This document shows, piece by piece, positions 6,737 through 19,105 of a DNA stretch of 64,000 nt. Numbering within the stretch: position 1 is the stretch's first letter; each line of letters opens with the position of its first letter. Origin of the DNA: an uncultured Christensenellaceae bacterium (lineage in GTDB: Bacteria; Bacillota; Clostridia; Christensenellales; UBA3700); the NCBI GenBank assembly GCA_944383895.1, contig CALWRH010000001.1, positions 121,199 through 185,198 on the forward strand, written 5' to 3'. The translations under genes and the position numbers were made by a program. The notes below the pieces were generated by a model. It saw nothing but the letters and a program-made list of their open reading frames with translations. It made no database searches and had not been told where the DNA came from.

Positions 6737-9133
6737 TTATCTCAGAACAGCGCCGAGCTGAGAAGTAAGTTTTGTCAGTACTCTCTCTACCTTCGCGCTG
6801 ACTTCTTCGTCAGTAAGCGTTCTGTCTGTCAGTCTGAATACCATATTGACCGCGACGCTCTTCTTGCCTGCGCCGATAGCATCGCTGCGATAAATATCGA
6901 ATATTCTCGCGCTCTTCAGCATGGATCCGCCTGCGCTCGTAACGCAAGAAAGCAGTTCTGCTGCGCTTACGTTTTCATCTACTGTTACCGCTATATCTCT
7001 CTCCATAGGAGGATATTTGCCTATCTCTTCAAACTTATATCCCTTTTTGCGGTATTTTTCTATGCTTGCGAGATCGATCTCTGCGATATACAGTCTGTCT
7101 TTTACGTCGAAAGACGCAGCGACTGACGGATGTACTTCTCCGATATAACCGATACTGAACTTGCCGATATAAAGCTCCGCGCTTCTGCCGCTGTGCAGAT
7201 ACGGACGCGAAGAACGTTTGTAGACTACGTTCAGTCCGTACTTGTAGGCAATGCGTCTGACTACCTCGTTTACCGTATAAAAATTTTCGTCCTTGCCGTA
7301 TGCGCCGATGACGAGGCGTTCTTTTTCTTCAGGCTGTTTCTCGAGAGGCAGACTCTCGGGAATATAGACGTTGGCAACTTCGAAGAAACGAGCTGCTTTG
7401 ATGTTTTTGAGAACGTTGGACGCAAGCACGTTCATCATGCTGTACGCAAGCGACGTTCTCATGACAGATACGTCTTCGCCGAGAGGATTGAGTATCGTCA
7501 CGCACTTTCTCGCGGGATCGTCTTCAGCAAGACGCAGAATATCGAAACTCTTAGGCGACGTGAAGGAGTATGTCAGAGTTTCGCTGTAGCCGTCGTTTAC
7601 GCATATATTCTTTACAGAATCGACTATCTTCTGATCCTCGGTCTTTCCTCCAACGGTCTGCTTGCCTTTGTCCATAAGCGTTTCGGTGATGTTGTCGTAT
7701 CCGTAAAGTCTGATGATCTCTTCCGCCAGATCGTTTGCGTTTTCTATATCGTCGCGGAAAAGCGGCGCCTTGCATACGAGAGTGTCGCCGTCAAGAACGG
7801 TATCTATCTGCAGACTGTTGAGTATGGATACCATTTTTTCGCGGGGAACGATTATGCCGAGTATGTCGTCGATTTTACTTGCCTCAACGCGCAACGTTTT
7901 TTGAGTGAGATCTGCATTGCAGCAGTCGACGACTCCTTTTGCGATCTTGCCGTATCCGTATTTATATACAAGCGTCAGAGCGCGCATGAGTCCGAGTCTC
8001 TGGCTTTCGAGATCTATGCCTCTTTCGTATCTGAAAGAAGAATCGGAGTGAAGATTGAGCGTTCTTGCTGTGCGGCGTATGTTATCGCGTGCGAATTTAG
8101 CACTCTCGAAGATAATGTCTTTGGTGTTTTCGTCAACGCAGCTGTTGTTGCCGCCCATTACGCCCGCGATAGCGCAAGGCTTGTCGCTGTCGCAAATAGC
8201 GAGCATTGTGTCGCTCAGCGTATACTCCTTGTTGTCGAGAGCAACGATCTTTTCTCCGTTTACCGCGCGTCTTGCAACGATAGAAGAATTTGCGATCTTG
8301 TCCGCGTCGAACGCGTGCATAGGCTGACCTATCTCGATAAGAACGTAGTTGGTTATATCTACAAAGTTGCTTATAGGTCTGAGCCCGACGCTCTTTAGTC
8401 TTTTCTGTATGATCTCTGCCGAAGGACATATCTTTATGTCGCGTACCGCGGCAGCCATATATCTCGGACAAAGGTCGGTGTCCTCGACTTTTACTTTCAC
8501 ATAATCGTTTACGTCTCCGGCCTCGCACTCAAAGCCGATTTCGGGCATTCTGAGCGGTTTTCCGAGCACAGTCGCAACTTCTCTCGCGATACCGAGAACG
8601 CTGTTGCAATCGCTTCTGTTAGCTGTTACGCCGATGTCGAGAATAACGTCGTCGTTGCCGAGTATCACGTTCATATCGGTGCCGAGCGGATATTTCTCTC
8701 CGTTCATTATAAGGATGCCGTAAACGCTTGCGCCCTTGTATTCAGCCTCGGTAAGCTTGAGTTCTTCGCCCGAGCAAAGCATACCGCACGATTCAACGCC
8801 GCGCAGCTTGCCTTTTTTAATTATCTGACCCGTGGGCAGCAGCGAATTGTCCATAGCAACGGGAACGAGATCGCCTTCTGCAACGTTCTGCGCGCCCGTA
8901 ACTATCTGCACGGTATCTTTCGCACCGACGTCGATGGCGCATATCTGCAGTTTGTCCGCATCGGGGTGTTTGGTAAGTTTTACGATCTTGCCGAGCACGA
9001 CGTTTTTCATTTCAGACGCCTTGTCGATGATCTCTTCCACCTCGAAACCTGCGGAAACGAGTTTATCCGCAAGGGATTGTACGTCTATATCTATATCAAC
9101 GAAATCTTTAAGCCAATTCAACGATACTTTCAT
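6737..9133 (-). CDS. pheT: phenylalanine--tRNA ligase beta subunit
   Basis: 798 aa. The N-terminus MKVSLNWLKDFVDI is the canonical PheT start, the B3/4, B5 and FDX-ACB regions are recognisable, and the gene follows pheS. Confidence 0.97.
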   Translation of the reverse strand: MKVSLNWLKDFVDIDIDVQSLADKLVSAGFEVEEIIDKASEMKNVVLGKIVKLTKHPDADKLQICAIDVGAKDTVQIVTGAQNVAEGDLVPVAMDNSLLPTGQIIKKGKLRGVESCGMLCSGEELKLTEAEYKGASVYGILIMNGEKYPLGTDMNVILGNDDVILDIGVTANRSDCNSVLGIAREVATVLGKPLRMPEIGFECEAGDVNDYVKVKVEDTDLCPRYMAAAVRDIKICPSAEIIQKRLKSVGLRPISNFVDITNYVLIEIGQPMHAFDADKIANSSIVARRAVNGEKIVALDNKEYTLSDTMLAICDSDKPCAIAGVMGGNNSCVDENTKDIIFESAKFARDNIRRTARTLNLHSDSSFRYERGIDLESQRLGLMRALTLVYKYGYGKIAKGVVDCCNADLTQKTLRVEASKIDDILGIIVPREKMVSILNSLQIDTVLDGDTLVCKAPLFRDDIENANDLAEEIIRLYGYDNITETLMDKGKQTVGGKTEDQKIVDSVKNICVNDGYSETLTYSFTSPKSFDILRLAEDDPARKCVTILNPLGEDVSVMRTSLAYSMMNVLASNVLKNIKAARFFEVANVYIPESLPLEKQPEEKERLVIGAYGKDENFYTVNEVVRRIAYKYGLNVVYKRSSRPYLHSGRSAELYIGKFSIGYIGEVHPSVAASFDVKDRLYIAEIDLASIEKYRKKGYKFEEIGKYPPMERDIAVTVDENVSAAELLSCVTSAGGSMLKSARIFDIYRSDAIGAGKKSVAVNMVFRLTDRTLTDEEVSAKVERVLTKLTSQLGAVLR

Positions 9134-17521: not shown

Positions 17522-17815
17522 ATGATATGCGAAAACCAAAATAGCTGTATATGCCCTAAAACATCGTGCAAAAACCACGGACATTGTTGCGCATGCGTCA
17601 ACAAACATAAAAATACAGACAGTCTGCCATATTGTCTTTTCCCTGACAACGGTGGAGATAAAAGCAATCTGAATTGTTATTTTGTTACTTCGGTGGATAT
17701 TTGCTTAGCAGCTTTCTGCGCAAGTTGCAGGTTACTGCATGCCGCAAAAGCTCCCGACTTTCGTCGGAGAGCCGCACCACGCGCTAAAGCGCTGTGGTTG
17801 CGCTACTACATTTAA
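17522..17815 (+). CDS. small Cys-rich protein (CxC..C..HGHCCxC..C; possibly DUF6485-like) whose 3' end runs into the repeat array
   Basis: The ATG lies 1 nt after the arsR-family stop (TGAtATG). The first roughly 45 codons look like a real Cys/His-rich protein. From about 17658 the reading frame is made of repeat sequence, so the true C-terminus is uncertain. Confidence 0.55.
   Translation: MICENQNSCICPKTSCKNHGHCCACVNKHKNTDSLPYCLFPDNGGDKSNLNCYFVTSVDICLAAFCASCRLLHAAKAPDFRRRAAPRAKALWLRYYI
17692..17810 (+). repeat. unit A1
   Basis: GGTGGATATTTGCTTAGCAGCTTTCTGCGCAAGTTGCAGGTTACTGCATGCCGCAAAAGC, then CTCCCGAC-TTTC-GTCGGAGAG, then CGCACCACGCGC-TAAA-GCGCTGTGGTTGCG, then CTACTACA. Confidence 0.85.
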
Positions 17816-17827
17816 TATTGTGGCAGA

Positions 17828-17953
17828 GGTGGATATTTGCTTAGCGGCTTTCTGCGTAGGTTGCAAGTTACTGCATGCCGCAAAAGCAACCGCCTGCGGC
17901 GGATTGCCGAACCTGTTTCCGCTGCGCTACAACGGGTTCGCTTACCACCTCTG
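17828..17953 (+). repeat. unit B1 (closed by CAGAGGTGG...CCACCTCTG)
   Basis: It has the same 58-nt 5' module as A. The distinct 3' half is CAACCGCC-TGC-GGCGGATTG plus GCCGAACC..GGGTTCGC, and it ends TTACCACCTCTG. Confidence 0.85.
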
Positions 17954-17996
17954 ACCGACAAGAAAAAAGCACTCTGAATTGTTATTTTGTTACTTC

Positions 17997-18115
17997 GGTG
18001 GATATTTGCTTAGCAGCTTTCTGCGCAAGTTGCAGGTTACTGCATGCCGCAAAAGCTCCCGACTTTCGTCGGAGAGCCGCACCACGCGCTAAAGCGCTGT
18101 GGTTGCGCTACTACA
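17997..18115 (+). repeat. unit A2
   Basis: Identical to A1 by eye. Confidence 0.85.
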
Positions 18116-18132
18116 TTTAATATTGTGGCAGA

Positions 18133-18258
18133 GGTGGATATTTGCTTAGCGGCTCTCTGCGCAAGTTGCAGGTTACTGCATGCCGCAAAAGCAACCGCCT
18201 CCGGCGGATTGCCGAACCTGTTTCCGCTGCGCTGCAACGGGTTCGCTTACCACCTCTG
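18133..18258 (+). repeat. unit B2
   Basis: Differs from B1 at about 6 positions, for example the loops CTTT>CTCT and TGC>TCC. Confidence 0.85.
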
Positions 18259-18300
18259 ACCGACAAAAAAAAACACTCGGAATTATTATTTTGTTACTTC

Positions 18301-18431
18301 GGTGGATATTTGCTTAGCTGCTTTCTGCGCAGGTTGTAAGTTACTGCATGCCGCAAAAGCTCCCGACTTTCGTCGGAGAGCCGCACCACGCGCTAAAGCG
18401 CTGTGGTTGCGCTATCCACCTCTGTACACCA
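18301..18431 (+). repeat. unit A3 (closed copy ending in a tRNA-Tyr-like ...ATCCACCTCTGTACACCA)
   Basis: It has the A-type body, but its 3' end is GCGCTATCCACCTCTGTACACCA, which pairs with the 5' GGTGGATA and matches the tRNA-Tyr 3' end at 16 of 18 positions. Confidence 0.85.
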
Positions 18432-18465
18432 AAAACAGACGCCCCACTTGAGACGTCTGTTTTTT
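18431..18465. terminator. bidirectional rho-independent terminator shared by tRNA-Tyr (-) and the repeat array/arsR operon (+)
   Basis: A5-CAGACG-(12-nt loop)-CGTCTG-T6, with A-runs and T-runs on both sides. Confidence 0.8.
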
Positions 18466-18549
18466 GGTGGGCAGAGGTGGATTCGAACCACCGAAGACAG
18501 AGTCGGCAGATTTACAGTCTGCTCCCTTTGGCCGCTCGGGAATCTGCCC
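18465..18549 (-). tRNA. tRNA-Tyr (GTA), long variable arm, CCA encoded
   Basis: Hand-folded: acceptor GGGCAGA/TCTGCCC, anticodon arm GCAGA-CTGTAAA-TCTGC, T arm GGTGG-TTCGAAT-CCACC, 85 nt. Confidence 0.93.
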
Positions 18550-18570
18550 GTATTTATATAGTTTAATTGG

Positions 18571-18646
18571 TGGAGCTGGTGATCGGAATCGAACCAACAA
18601 CCTGCTGATTACAAATCAGCTGCTCTGCCAATTGAGCTACACCAGC
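18571..18646 (-). tRNA. tRNA-Thr (TGT), CCA encoded
   Basis: Acceptor GCTGGTG/CACCAGC, anticodon arm GCTGA-TTTGTAA-TCAGC, T loop TTCGATT, 76 nt. Confidence 0.9.
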
Positions 18647-18662
18647 AAGGTACCCTTTCGGG

Positions 18663-18738
18663 TGGTGCCTCGGGGCGGAATCGAACCACCGACACGGGGA
18701 TTTTCAGTCCCCTGCTCTACCGACTGAGCTACCGAGGC
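18663..18738 (-). tRNA. tRNA-Phe (GAA), CCA encoded
   Basis: GCCTCGGTAGCTCAGTCGGTAGAGC..., anticodon arm GGGGA-CTGAAAA-TCCCC, 76 nt. Confidence 0.93.
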
Positions 18739-18781
18739 ATAAATTTGGAGATTTATACAAATCTCCGAAACTTCTATAAAT

Positions 18782-18858
18782 TGGCGACTCGGAAGGGATT
18801 CGAACCCTCGACCTCTAGCGTGACAGGCTAGCGTTCTAACCAACTGAACTACCGAGCC
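18782..18858 (-). tRNA. tRNA-Asp (GTC), CCA encoded
   Basis: GGCTCGGTAGTTCAGTTGGTTAGAAC..., anticodon arm CTAGC-CTGTCAC-GCTAG, 77 nt. Confidence 0.93.
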
Positions 18859-18872
18859 AAATGTATTTTATG

Positions 18873-18949
18873 TGGTGGGCCATCAAGGACTCGAACCTTG
18901 GACCGACCGGTTATGAGCCGGTTGCTCTAACCAACTGAGCTAATGGCCC
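18873..18949 (-). tRNA. tRNA with CAT anticodon; body resembles Firmicute tRNA-Ile2 (lysidine) rather than initiator
   Basis: GGGCCATTAGCTCAGTTGGTTAGAGC, anticodon arm ACCGG-CTCATAA-CCGGT, T loop TTCGAGT. It lacks the three G-C pairs of an initiator anticodon stem. The choice between Ile2 and elongator Met cannot be settled by eye. Confidence 0.85.
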
Positions 18950-18969
18950 CCGGCTTAGCTTGTAATCGC

Positions 18970-19046
18970 TGGTCGGGGTGAAGAGATTCGAACTCCCGGC
19001 CCCATGGTCCCAAACCACGTGCGCTACCAAGCTGCGCTACACCCCG
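18970..19046 (-). tRNA. tRNA-Pro (TGG), CCA encoded
   Basis: CGGGGTGTAGCGCAGCTTGGTAGCGC..., anticodon arm CGTGG-TTTGGGA-CCATG, 77 nt. Confidence 0.93.
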
Positions 19047-19075: not shown

Positions 19076-19105
19076 AATATACTACATCGTGTGGGCTATT
19101 GTCAA
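19076..19105 (-). promoter_or_regulatory. candidate sigma-A promoter of the tRNA operon (TTGACA-18-TATATT)
   Basis: The hexamers are read on the minus strand about 30 nt upstream of the tRNA-Pro 5' end. Confidence 0.55.

What the first reader, a model, noticed from the sequence alone, without database searches (positions are those of the whole stretch)
17822..18549. Repeat units mimic the acceptor/T-arm minihelix and CCA end of the neighbouring tRNA-Tyr, in inverted orientation
The 3' part of tRNA-Tyr (minus strand) reads CTTCGGTGG-TTCGAAT-CCACC-TCTGCCC-A-CCA. On the plus strand, unit A3 reads CTTCGGTGG-ATA-[~105-nt structured insert]-TAT-CCACC-TCTGTAC-A-CCA (18297-18431). It therefore has the same T-stem, acceptor 3' strand, discriminator and CCA, with the 7-nt T-loop replaced by the insert. 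The B units read (T)GGCAGA-GGTGG-ATA-[insert]-TTA-CCACC-TCTGACC-GACA. This fuses an acceptor 5' strand (GGGCAGA in the tRNA) directly to the T-stem, giving an acceptor/T 'minihelix' of about 12 bp that lacks D and anticodon arms. Positions 18414-18431 and 18465-18482 form a 16/18 inverted repeat flanking the shared terminator, so a genuine tRNA and a tRNA-like 3' module converge head to head. There are two readings. (i) The units are RNAs scaffolded or processed by tRNA-maturation enzymes (RNase P, RNase Z, CCA-adding enzyme), in the way tRNA-like modules serve tmRNA, bacterial Y RNAs and eukaryotic mascRNA. The tandem arrangement would then be a processing cassette. (ii) They are decayed, amplified att-type duplications left by an element that targeted the tRNA-Tyr 3' end. 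I cannot discriminate between these from sequence alone.
Basis: partly seen in the sequence, partly recalled or inferred. Interest (0 to 1): 0.7.

Follow-up and report, generated by a model that had tools for sequence, protein, structure and literature searches.

The report
tRNA-Tyr-derived structured repeat array
Next to a tyrosine tRNA gene lies a variable tandem array of about 140-base repeats that fold into a conserved four-armed structure, carry copies of the tRNA's own 3' end, match no described RNA or mobile-element family, and have an unknown function.

Summary
Window 17680-18432 (+) holds five units (A1-B1-A2-B2-A3) ending at a bidirectional terminator shared with tRNA-Tyr. Their flanks copy the tRNA-Tyr 3' end well beyond GGTGG/CCACC.

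Homologous units follow tRNA-Tyr, in the same relative orientation, in three further related uncultured Clostridia lineages. Where the tRNA-Tyr acceptor stem differs (GGGCAGA versus GGGAAGA), the unit flanks differ in the same way.

The conserved part is not the 'minihelix'. It is a four-way junction (H1, H2, P3, closed by GGTGG/CCACC), supported by compensatory changes, plus an inverted copy of the tRNA 3' end beside the terminator. The 12-bp acceptor/T helix exists only in some units, and CCA only in a few.

No Rfam, ARAGORN, phage, plasmid or IMG/VR match was found, and no other copy in 272 kb from this lineage. No integrase lies within 4-8 kb in any context. A genuine integrase-made duplication at a tRNA-Tyr gene with the same 3' end (a viral contig) looks different: direct orientation, T-loop intact.

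My reading is a locally born, tRNA-Tyr-derived structured repeat that evolves in concert with the tRNA and is reshuffled by homologous recombination. It is probably active as RNA from transcription through the terminator. The strand and the function are unresolved.

The parts
17680..17815 (.). Unit A1: core with helices P3, H2, H1. It has the 5' GGTGG (17692-17696) but no closing CCACC. It overlaps the 3' end of the DUF6485-like ORF.
   Evidence: Covariance-model hit of 104 bits; alignment; motif coordinates.
17816..17961 (.). Unit B1: closed by GGCAGAGGTGG (17822-17832) pairing with CCACCTCTGaCC (17945-17956). H2 lies at 17886-17907 and H1 at 17908-17940.
   Evidence: Covariance-model hit of 151 bits; fold z -4.3; coordinates.
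17962..17984 (.). Inter-unit spacer (A-run on the plus strand, T-run on the minus strand). It resembles the flank of the terminator's right arm.
17985..18120 (.). Unit A2 (99% identical to A1).
18121..18266 (.). Unit B2 (97% identical to B1).
18289..18432 (.). Unit A3: CTTCGGTGG-ATA-core-TAT-CCACC-TCTGTAC-A-CCA. Its tail (18414-18435) is the left arm of the palindrome with the tRNA-Tyr 3' end.
   Evidence: Covariance-model hit of 144 bits; inverted repeat I1.
18431..18464 (.). Bidirectional terminator-type hairpin (A-run, 16-nt arms, T-run) shared by tRNA-Tyr and unit A3. It is the centre of the palindrome.
   Evidence: Inverted repeat I4. The same arrangement occurs in L031, L036 and L046.
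18465..18549 (-). tRNA-Tyr (GUA), the last gene of the Pro-Met-Asp-Phe-Thr-Tyr operon (18465-19046). Its last 16-28 nt are the source of the unit flanks.
   Evidence: ARAGORN; Rfam 52 bits. The covariance model of the unit matches its antisense T-arm with the 107-nt interior deleted.
19076..19105 (-). Promoter-like site (TTGACA-18-TATATT, 11/12) in front of the tRNA operon. It is the only strong promoter-like site near the array and would drive the minus strand.
   Evidence: The sequence is conserved in L031 and L036.
17522..17815 (+). DUF6485-like Cys-rich ORF, running into unit A1. Its C-terminus has been replaced by repeat sequence in this strain.
   Evidence: The gene ends differently in conspecific contigs.

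Best explanation
**What it is (shown).** A lineage-restricted structured repeat.
- Each full unit has a core of about 107-115 nt that folds into a four-way junction: hairpins H1 and H2, helix P3 closing a variable domain, and the 5-bp clamp GGTGG/CCACC.
- Units sit directly beyond the bidirectional terminator of the tRNA operon that ends in tRNA-Tyr. Orientation relative to the tRNA is the same in four related lineages; copy number is 1 to 5.

**Why it looks like tRNA-Tyr (largely shown).**
- The flanks are copies of the last 16-28 nt of the neighbouring tRNA-Tyr gene.
- An inverted copy lies on the tRNA-proximal side of nearly every full unit (A1/A2 and truncated copies lack it). For the unit next to the terminator, this copy forms with the tRNA's 3' end a palindrome of about 2 x 35 nt centred on the terminator loop.
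- In some units a second copy lies on the far side and pairs with the first. That is the 'minihelix'.
- The resemblance is therefore common descent from a local inverted duplication. It is kept in step with the tRNA gene by concerted evolution, since the flanks follow a lineage-specific acceptor-stem change. It is not an independent tRNA-like gene.

**How the array changes (shown).** Units are gained, lost, truncated and made chimeric between conspecific strains, with breakpoints inside the cores. This points to homologous or unequal recombination and microhomology deletions.

**What it does (inferred).**
- The core fold is kept by compensatory changes, while neighbouring spacers have become unalignable. 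The fold is therefore under constraint.
- I think it most likely acts as a structured RNA made by transcription that passes the shared terminator.
- The simplest source is read-through from the strong tRNA-operon promoter, which is the minus strand of the window. On that strand every unit begins with a stretch antisense to the tRNA-Tyr 3' end.
- The role would be of a trailer, insulator or RNA-stabilising type, not that of a minihelix substrate of tRNA enzymes.
- The strand and the molecular role are not established.
For: **Conserved position and orientation.** Units follow tRNA-Tyr in the window, L031 (IspH-S1 83% aa identity), L036 (66%) and L046.

**Flanks follow the tRNA.** The window and L031 have CCACCTCTGCCCACCA; L036 and L046 have CCACCTCTTCCCACCA, with 0-1 mismatch in the unit flanks. 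Each count exceeds every shuffle.

**Palindrome with the terminator.** Window 22 nt at 91% plus 16-nt hairpin arms. L046 has perfect 34-nt arms.

**Fold.**
- RNAalifold gives 31 pairs, 7 of them with double changes.
- On 15 distinct units, 92.6% of cells are paired and 8 pairs have changes on both sides. Slid controls give 35-44% paired and 1-3 such pairs; 0 of 500 shuffles reach the observed covariation score.
- The clearest case is TTTGC/GCAAA changing to TTCGC/GCGAA.

**Constraint.** Between the window and L036, tRNA spacers and the upstream intergenic region are essentially unalignable and ispH DNA is 74% identical. Unit blocks such as GGTTCGGC, TCCGCCG..GGCGG, GCTTTYGCG and AAGCRAA persist.

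**Homology of the flanks to the tRNA.** The unit's covariance model aligns to antisense tRNA-Tyr (CCA to variable arm) with the 107-position interior deleted, at 14.5-17.8 bits in every lineage.

**Recombination dynamics.** Conspecific contigs carry A3-B2-A2-B1-A1 (window), B-A-B-chimera (L003) or B-truncated A (L009). Chimeras have breakpoints in H2 or between H1 and H2.

**Not a dispersed repeat.** No other copy was found in 272 kb of this lineage.

**Transcription argument.**
- The only strong promoter-like site is that of the tRNA operon.
- No promoter-like site for the opposite strand is conserved.
- In L046 the unit is followed by a second terminator-like hairpin on the tRNA-sense strand.
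Against: - There is no expression data.
- The G.U versus A.C count over the helices is 13 versus 9, with 90% Watson-Crick pairs. Neither strand is favoured, and a DNA-level hairpin is equally compatible.
- Folding energies are similar on both strands.
- B-type H1 has a U.G on the plus strand that becomes a C.A mismatch on the minus strand. Several P3-domain pairs show the reverse.
- Many copies are truncated or internally deleted (L031 u1 and u3, L036 u3 and u4, the distal-most truncated unit of L003, the L009 A unit). This is unusual for an RNA gene under selection.
- Only about four independent lineages support the covariation, and the alignment used was fitted to the model.
- Loops are not conserved, and no unpaired nucleotide is strongly conserved apart from junction linkers.
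- Compensatory changes in hairpins can also arise without selection, by templated correction of quasi-palindromes.
Confidence: 0.4

Rival explanations
1. DNA-level recombination module. The units are non-autonomous cassette- or att-like elements of the tRNA-Tyr integration hotspot. In single-stranded or cruciform form, the paired flanks reproduce the duplex of the tRNA-Tyr gene's 3' end (an attB mimic, as integron attC or CTX-phage attP mimic their partners). A recombinase encoded elsewhere inserts them, alone or with cargo, next to the tRNA. Arrays arise by tandem accretion.
For: - tRNA-Tyr with this very 3' end is a genuine integrase target with tandem accretion (L054: two integrase-bearing elements, 31-nt direct repeat).
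- L036 has direct copies of the tRNA 3' end on the far side of its units (16/16 at 8570-8585, 15/16 at 8436-8451).
- L036 has a 3.6-kb block (small ORF, FtsX, ABC ATPase) bracketed by units u3 and u4.
- The locus borders strain- and species-variable gene content.
- Pairs are almost purely Watson-Crick with no strand bias.
- Copy number varies, and many copies are decayed.
Against: - No integrase, transposase or reverse transcriptase was found in five contexts or among the 64-kb window ORFs scanned.
- Differences between strains have breakpoints inside cores or at microhomologies, not at the tRNA-like blocks.
- The far-side copy is absent in the A units, L031 and L046.
- The T-loop, which is part of the identity block in the genuine att repeat of L054, is missing.
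- No match was found in phages, plasmids or IMG/VR.
- In L046 the single unit lies in core-genome context (SNF2 helicase, sigma factor, RuvX, S2, EF-Ts).
Confidence: 0.22
2. By-product without function. The tRNA-Tyr 3' end was inverted-duplicated at the terminator palindrome by snap-back or template switching. It was then tandemly amplified, and its hairpins are kept paired by templated quasi-palindrome correction and gene conversion rather than by selection.
For: - The duplication module starts in the terminator loop or right arm: remnants of the right arm plus T-run precede internal units.
- The palindrome arms are perfect or near-perfect.
- Hints that H1 and H2 derive from the T-arm: GTGGTTCGGCAATCCGCC versus GTGGTTCG--AATCCACC, and CGAACCAC directly after GGTGGAT in L046.
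- No strand bias.
- Many defective copies.
- Very narrow distribution: one true hit in the metagenome scan.
Against: - It persists at the same place, with the same fold, in lineages whose neutral intergenic DNA is unalignable.
- Compensatory changes occur in P3 and in the outer H2 stem, which have no tRNA template.
- An intact solitary unit is kept in L046.
- Core-versus-tRNA similarity beyond the flanks is mostly not significant (p 0.03-0.5).
Confidence: 0.2
3. The units are RNAs whose acceptor/T-type minihelix and (A)CCA end make them substrates of RNase P, RNase Z or exonucleases, the CCA-adding enzyme or even TyrRS. The array is a processing cassette.
For: - B units have an 11-bp closing helix identical in sequence to the tRNA-Tyr acceptor/T stack.
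- On the tRNA-sense strand, L036 u3 has a perfect 12-bp helix followed by A-CCA; u2 has the same with one G.U.
- A3 and the L046 unit end in ...A-CCA followed by the same trailer and terminator as tRNA-Tyr.
- The flanks stay tRNA-identical instead of drifting as a free helix would.
Against: - The long helix is absent in the A units, all L031 units and L046.
- B ends in GACA.
- No T-loop or elbow exists in any unit.
- ARAGORN and the Rfam tRNA, tmRNA and YrlA-type models give nothing.
- The 'best' minihelices lie on opposite strands in different lineages.
- No promoter is conserved for the plus strand.
Confidence: 0.12

Closest known systems
att-site duplications and tandem accretion of integrative elements at tRNA 3' ends (for example ICE/CIME arrays; seen here in L054)
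   Same: - Copies of the tRNA 3' end next to the tRNA gene.
- Tandem arrangement.
- Location at the edge of variable gene content.
- Some direct copies in L036.
   Different: - The copy present in every unit is inverted.
- The T-loop is replaced by a 107-115-nt structured core.
- Units are 135-150 bp with no cargo.
- No integrase is present.
- Junctions between strains are not at the repeats.
- For comparison, L054 shows a direct 31-nt repeat with an intact T-loop and integrase genes.
tRNA-like modules in other RNAs (tmRNA, bacterial Y RNA YrlA, mascRNA, plant-virus TLS-Tyr)
   Same: - In some units, an acceptor/T-type helix with a discriminator and CCA.
- A large structured domain attached to it.
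   Different: - No T-loop, D-loop analogue or elbow.
- The insert sits where the T-loop should be.
- The helix is not conserved across the family.
- No hit to the Rfam models.
- No partner gene such as rsr or smpB nearby.
REP/BIME clusters and structured MITEs (Correia, bcr1, RUP)
   Same: - Extragenic, hairpin-rich units of 100-150 nt, placed after transcription units and often at terminators.
- Copy number varies between strains.
- The structure is kept by paired changes.
   Different: - A single locus only: no other copy in 272 kb and none in the rest of the 154-kb contig of L046 with the scan pattern.
- No terminal inverted repeats of its own apart from the tRNA copies.
- No target-site duplication.
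sRNAs cut from tRNA-operon external transcribed spacers (for example E. coli 3'ETS-leuZ; recalled from the literature, not tested here)
   Same: Lies directly downstream of the last tRNA of an operon and could be made from the same promoter.
   Different: It lies after the terminator hairpin, not before it. It is much larger, structured and repeated. No target is known.
Folded single-strand recombination sites (integron attC, CTX-phage attP)
   Same: - Two inverted half-sites separated by a variable, sometimes branched, structured spacer.
- Structure rather than sequence is conserved.
- Arrays lie next to a fixed chromosomal site.
- The recombinase is not necessarily adjacent.
   Different: - No IntI or Xer-type signature sequences.
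- No cassette ORFs in most units.
- No recombinase has been identified.
- This analogy is only an inference.

Membership tests
tRNA / tmRNA / tRNA-like RNA genes | Cloverleaf or tRNA-like domain with a T-loop, recognised by ARAGORN or the Rfam tRNA clan models | tested here: not met
   ARAGORN finds only the six minus-strand tRNAs. Rfam at E<=10 gives no tRNA-clan hit to the units on either strand. No unit contains a T-loop.
Acceptor/T minihelix substrates (RNase P, CCA-adding enzyme) | About 12 bp of coaxial acceptor + T stem followed by discriminator and CCA, conserved in the family | tested here: not met
   - B has 11 bp with a bulge but ends in GACA.
- A3 has ACCA but only 5 (+3) bp.
- A1 and A2 have no closing strand.
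- L031 and L046 units have 5 bp only.
- Only L036 u2 and u3 have 12 bp + ACCA, and those are on the opposite strand.
att duplications of tRNA-targeting integrative elements | Direct repeats of the tRNA 3' segment bracketing an element | tested here: inconclusive
   Direct copies exist in L036 and as partial copies in B units. However, the copy shared by all units is inverted and the T-loop is missing. Compare L054.
att duplications of tRNA-targeting integrative elements | Integrase gene at or near the junction | tested here: not met
   - No integrase domain in the window island or in the L046 or L036 ORFs tested.
- None in the called genes of L003-L012 or L031.
- None among the 20 further ORFs of >=200 aa scanned across the 64-kb window.
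att duplications of tRNA-targeting integrative elements | Empty versus occupied alleles with junctions at the repeat | tested here: not met
   Conspecific contigs differ by junctions inside cores or at a 13-nt microhomology. No empty site was seen in any lineage for which sequence past the tRNA was available.
MITE / REP-type dispersed repeats | Many dispersed copies in the genome | tested here: not met
   The covariance model finds only the tRNA-Tyr-linked units (plus L036 u4, 3.6 kb downstream) in 272,711 bases of this lineage. Whole genomes could not be scanned.
Described RNA families (Rfam 15, including riboswitches, T-box, self-cleaving ribozymes, Y RNA, OLE/GOLLD/ROOL) | Match to a curated covariance model | tested here: not met
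   There is no hit at gathering score. The only matches below it are chance-level, to hairpin-like models.
Structured RNA under selection (generic) | Conserved secondary structure with compensatory changes | tested here: met
   92.6% of cells are paired and 8 pairs have double changes, against 35-44% paired and 1-3 pairs when the partners are slid. The caveat is that there are few independent lineages.
Structured RNA under selection (generic) | Strand asymmetry (G.U tolerated, A.C avoided) and evidence of transcription | tested here: inconclusive
   G.U 13 versus A.C 9. Transcription cannot be tested with these tools.

The most novel reading that the evidence does not exclude
The units are true molecular mimics of the tRNA-Tyr acceptor/T arm, kept identical to the resident tRNA by selection. 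On this reading a folded strand (RNA, or single-stranded DNA) presents the tRNA-Tyr 3'-end duplex to an enzyme that normally reads tRNA-Tyr or its gene. Candidate enzymes are a tRNA-Tyr-specific recombinase, RNase P, the CCA-adding enzyme, TyrRS, or a tRNA-Tyr-directed nuclease. The units would then act as a recombination site, a decoy or a scaffold. That would be a new class of tRNA-mimicking element attached to a four-way-junction domain.
Probability: 0.15. Interest if true: 0.85.

Novelty: new variant of a known kind. Interest (0 to 1): 0.5.

Why it matters
If the fold is functional, this is an undescribed structured RNA (or DNA) family. It is tied to a single tRNA gene and co-evolves with that tRNA's acceptor stem.

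That would be a compact natural case for asking how tRNA 3'-end sequences are reused outside translation. It would also show how palindromes at terminators seed new structured elements.

If it is only a by-product, it still documents a mechanism that makes tRNA flanks unstable and breaks assemblies. The steps are inverted duplication of a tRNA end around its terminator, then tandem amplification and concerted evolution. In this strain the array has rewritten the 3' end of a neighbouring gene.

Tried and rejected
**Database searches**
- Rfam at gathering score and at E<=10 on the window units and on the L036 units gave nothing. This argues against known riboswitches, T-box, ribozymes, Y RNA, and GOLLD/ROOL/OLE.
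- ARAGORN on both strands found only the real tRNAs.
- BLAST against phages and plasmids, using the window array and the L036 array, gave no match.
- IMG/VR pattern scans for the unit gave only chance coding hits or nothing.
- The GTDB genome scan with GGTGGATATTN{30,50}GCCGCAAAAGC gave 17 hits, all chance.
- The metagenome scan with a cross-lineage pattern gave one true hit (L046) among 7.
- Most relatives' contigs end inside the tRNA cluster, so only L031, L036, L046 and part of L052 were informative.

**Ideas considered and dropped**
- Primer-binding-site idea. The inverted copy is exactly the last 18 nt of the tRNA, as in retroviral PBS. I dropped it because the homology runs on into the T-loop and the T-stem 5' strand (CGAACCAC) after a small indel, and no reverse transcriptase is present.
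- 'Core made of nested T-arm copies'. This is suggestive but mostly not significant (p 0.03-0.5).
- Type III antitoxin or CRISPR-like arrays. The unit size and the absence of partner genes argue against them.
- Coding potential. ORFs cross the units, but the P3 domain is not conserved between lineages.

**Inconclusive tests**
- Strand call from G.U versus A.C counts and from folding energies.
- Promoter scans found no conserved promoter for the plus strand.
- A literature search for tRNA-like minihelix RNAs in Clostridia found nothing relevant.
Full report
**1. What is in the window**

Positions 17656-18414 are a tandem repeat of period 305 (2.5 copies, 96% matches). It resolves into five units of two kinds, A1-B1-A2-B2-A3.

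All five units share an almost invariant 5' half on the plus strand: GGTGGATATTTGCTTAGC...GTTACTGCATGCCGCAAAAGC. These motifs occur five times and nowhere else in the 64 kb. A and B differ in the 3' half, where each has two different hairpins at equivalent places.

A3 ends at a hairpin with an A-run before it and a T-run after it (18431-18464). On the other side of that hairpin, tRNA-Tyr ends on the minus strand (18465-18549). tRNA-Tyr is the last gene of a Pro-Met-Asp-Phe-Thr-Tyr operon.

The resemblance to the tRNA 3' end is far above chance: 4 occurrences of the 16-mer with up to 3 mismatches, against 0.11 expected.

Two clarifications are needed:
- GGCAGAGGTGG at the 5' end of B is just the reverse complement of the tRNA's 3' strand. 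B is therefore a core flanked by an inverted repeat of the tRNA-Tyr 3' end, and any such hairpin must look like an acceptor/T minihelix on either strand.
- The features never coincide in one unit. A1 and A2 have no closing strand. A3 has ACCA but only a 5-bp clamp. B has an 11-bp stem but ends in GACA.

**2. Context**

The window is core chromosome of an uncultured spore-forming Clostridia bacterium. It carries MutS2, PheST, spoVA, the spoIIA operon, an ispH-S1 fusion, RNase Y, FtsK and PNPase. Nearly all genes are on the minus strand.

Between spoIIAA and the tRNAs lies a small plus-strand block: an HTH protein, an acetyltransferase, ArsR and a DUF6485-like ORF. No integrase, transposase or reverse transcriptase was found.

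The only strong promoter-like site near the array is that of the tRNA operon.

**3. Is it a known thing?**

No.
- Rfam gives nothing at gathering score or at E<=10, on either strand.
- ARAGORN sees only the six tRNAs.
- Phage and plasmid collections and IMG/VR hold nothing similar.

**4. Conspecific variation**

Contigs that encode the identical ArsR protein show that the array is unstable.
- L003 has B-A-B plus a truncated chimeric unit.
- L009 has B plus a truncated A.
- L008 has two extra genes between the DUF6485 gene and the array.
- The terminator next to the tRNA also differs: CAGACG type in the window, ATGACACC type in L003 and L009.

The chimeras have breakpoints inside the cores. Examples are B-type H2 joined to A-type H1, and a half-and-half H2 in L009. 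In the window, the array is joined to the DUF6485 gene at a 13-nt microhomology.

This is the signature of homologous or unequal recombination and microhomology deletion. It is not the signature of site-specific exchange at the tRNA-like blocks.

**5. Other lineages**

I used the neighbouring IspH-S1 protein to reach relatives. Most contigs break inside the tRNA cluster. Three gave sequence past tRNA-Tyr, and a metagenome pattern scan added a fourth.

| Locus | IspH-S1 identity | What follows tRNA-Tyr |
|---|---|---|
| L031 | 83% | Three units |
| L036 | 66% | Three units, then a 3.6-kb block, then a degenerate fourth unit |
| L046 | not measured | One intact unit between tRNA-Tyr and an SNF2 helicase, in core context |
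| L052 | 56% | A 14-nt direct copy of the tRNA-Tyr variable arm/T-stem, then the contig ends |

In L031, L036 and L046 the units have the same orientation relative to the tRNA as in the window. In each, the unit nearest the tRNA begins, right after the terminator's T-run, with an inverted copy of the tRNA's 3' end. tRNA end, terminator and inverted copy together form a palindrome, which has perfect 34-nt arms in L046.

The tRNA-Tyr acceptor stem differs between lineages: GGGCAGA/TCTGCCC in the window and L031, and GGGAAGA/TCTTCCC in L036, L046 and L034. The unit flanks carry the same difference.

**6. What is conserved and what is not**

Aligning nine distinct units gives a four-way junction: a clamp P1 (GGTGG/CCACC), hairpin H1, hairpin H2, and helix P3 closing a variable domain.

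I built a covariance model from this alignment. It recovers every unit at 68-152 bits and nothing else in 272,711 bases of this lineage.

On 15 distinct units:
- 92.6% of cells are paired, and 8 pairs show changes on both sides.
- Sliding the partners gives 35-44% paired and 1-3 such pairs.
- No shuffle out of 500 reaches the observed covariation score.

The clearest cases are:
- P3: TTTGC/GCAAA changing to TTCGC/GCGAA.
- The outer H2 stem: GCTC/GAGC, GCAA/TTGC and GCTG/CAGC.
- The inner H1 stem.

Between the window and L036, the tRNA spacers and the upstream intergenic DNA are unalignable, yet blocks of the unit persist. The fold is therefore constrained, or the element has moved between lineages.

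By contrast, the extension of P1 into an acceptor-like helix is present only in the B units and in L036 u2 and u3. It is absent in the A units, in L031 and in L046. The minihelix is thus not the family's defining feature.

The model also aligns to antisense tRNA-Tyr (CCA to variable arm) with its 107-position interior deleted. This is a formal statement that an A-type unit looks like an inverted tRNA-Tyr 3' part with the T-loop replaced by the core.

**7. Which strand?**

Undecided.
- Folding energies are similar on both strands.
- Over the model's helices I count 13 G.U against 9 A.C, with 90% Watson-Crick pairs.
- B-type H1 favours the plus strand (U.G versus C.A), while several P3-domain pairs favour the minus strand.
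- No promoter-like site is conserved for the plus strand.
- The minus strand would be fed by read-through from the tRNA promoter. In L046 the unit is followed by a second terminator-like hairpin on that strand.

**8. The att reading**

I scanned IMG/VR for the tRNA-Tyr 3' end itself. This found L054, where two integrase-bearing elements sit in tandem at a tRNA-Tyr with the same 3' end.

There the duplication is a direct 31-nt repeat (CGGTGGTTCGAATCCACCTCTGCCCACCAAA) with the T-loop intact. It is about 6 kb from the tRNA and adjacent to integrase genes. So this tRNA end is a genuine integration site in related bacteria.

The window's units differ from that pattern in orientation, in lacking the T-loop, in size, and in lacking any recombinase.

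Two things keep a DNA-level recombination model alive:
- L036 has direct copies of the tRNA end on the far side of units (16/16 and 15/16).
- L036 has a gene block bracketed by units.

An att-mimicking folded strand, as in integron attC or CTX attP, is possible. It is a rival, not the best-supported view, because the junctions between strains are not at those blocks.

**9. Verdict**

*Shown:*
- A lineage-restricted, single-locus repeat with a conserved four-way-junction core.
- Flanks that are copies of the neighbouring tRNA-Tyr 3' end.
- Concerted evolution with that tRNA.
- Rapid turnover by homologous recombination.

*Inferred:*
- Origin by inverted duplication around the terminator.
- Constraint on the fold.
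- Most likely activity as RNA made by transcription through the terminator.

*Not shown:*
- Any transcript, any processing, or any function.

I rate the tRNA-enzyme scaffold idea at about 0.12. I rate a DNA recombination module at about 0.22 and a functionless by-product at about 0.20.

The element is not described in any library I could search. In kind, it lies between known classes: tRNA-derived duplications, structured extragenic repeats and tRNA-operon trailer RNAs.

Noticed in passing
window 17522-17815 (+): A DUF6485-like Cys-rich ORF (weak Pfam match, E 0.0076) has its C-terminus replaced by sequence of unit A1 in this strain. Conspecific contigs end the gene in two other ways. The join is at AAAGCAATCTGAA, a microhomology with the inter-unit spacer.
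   Followed up: partly
L008 6493-7684: A conspecific contig carries an extra DUF5714 gene and a membrane-protein gene between the DUF6485 gene and the array. This is a strain-level gene-content difference at the edge of the array.
   Followed up: partly
L031 8566-12132: In the 83%-identity relative, the gene next to the units encodes a 1188-aa protein with TIR_2 and NPHP3_N (NACHT-like) domains, a defence-type protein. The flank of tRNA-Tyr therefore holds different cargo in each lineage.
   Followed up: no
L054 1-9505 (IMG/VR contig): Two tandem elements, each with a tyrosine-integrase-like gene, are integrated at a tRNA-Tyr with the same 3' end. They are bounded by a 31-nt direct repeat. The cargo includes a PTH2 peptidyl-tRNA hydrolase (7130-7588).
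   Followed up: partly
L055 2616-4644 and L056 4216-4704 (IMG/VR contigs of 181 and 158 kb): Large viral contigs carry tRNA arrays. These include a tRNA with anticodon CUA (called Pyl by ARAGORN, possibly an amber suppressor) and a tRNA-Tyr whose 3' end is identical to the host-type sequence.
   Followed up: no
window 18739-18781 (-), spacer between tRNA-Asp and tRNA-Phe: The spacer holds an 8-bp hairpin (GGAGATTT/AAATCTCC). L036 has a different hairpin at the same position, and L031 has only a 10-nt spacer.
   Followed up: no
L052 6891-6973: In a more distant relative (IspH-S1 56%), a 14-nt direct copy of the tRNA-Tyr variable arm/T-stem 5' strand (CTCTGTCTACGATG) lies 45 nt after the terminator. 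It is followed by GTTCGC..., and then the contig ends. This may be a unit in the opposite orientation relative to the tRNA.
   Followed up: partly
L036 12140-12290: A degenerate fourth unit lacks H1 and H2. It is preceded by a terminator whose outer stem and flanks (CCACGCAAAAGC...GCTTTTGCGTGG) match the tRNA-Tyr terminator but whose inner stem is different. It sits after an ABC-transporter block.
   Followed up: partly
many loci (L030, L032-L035, L037-L040, L048-L051): Assemblies of this clade almost always break inside or just after this tRNA cluster. This limited the comparison and suggests repeated sequence at the locus.
   Followed up: no
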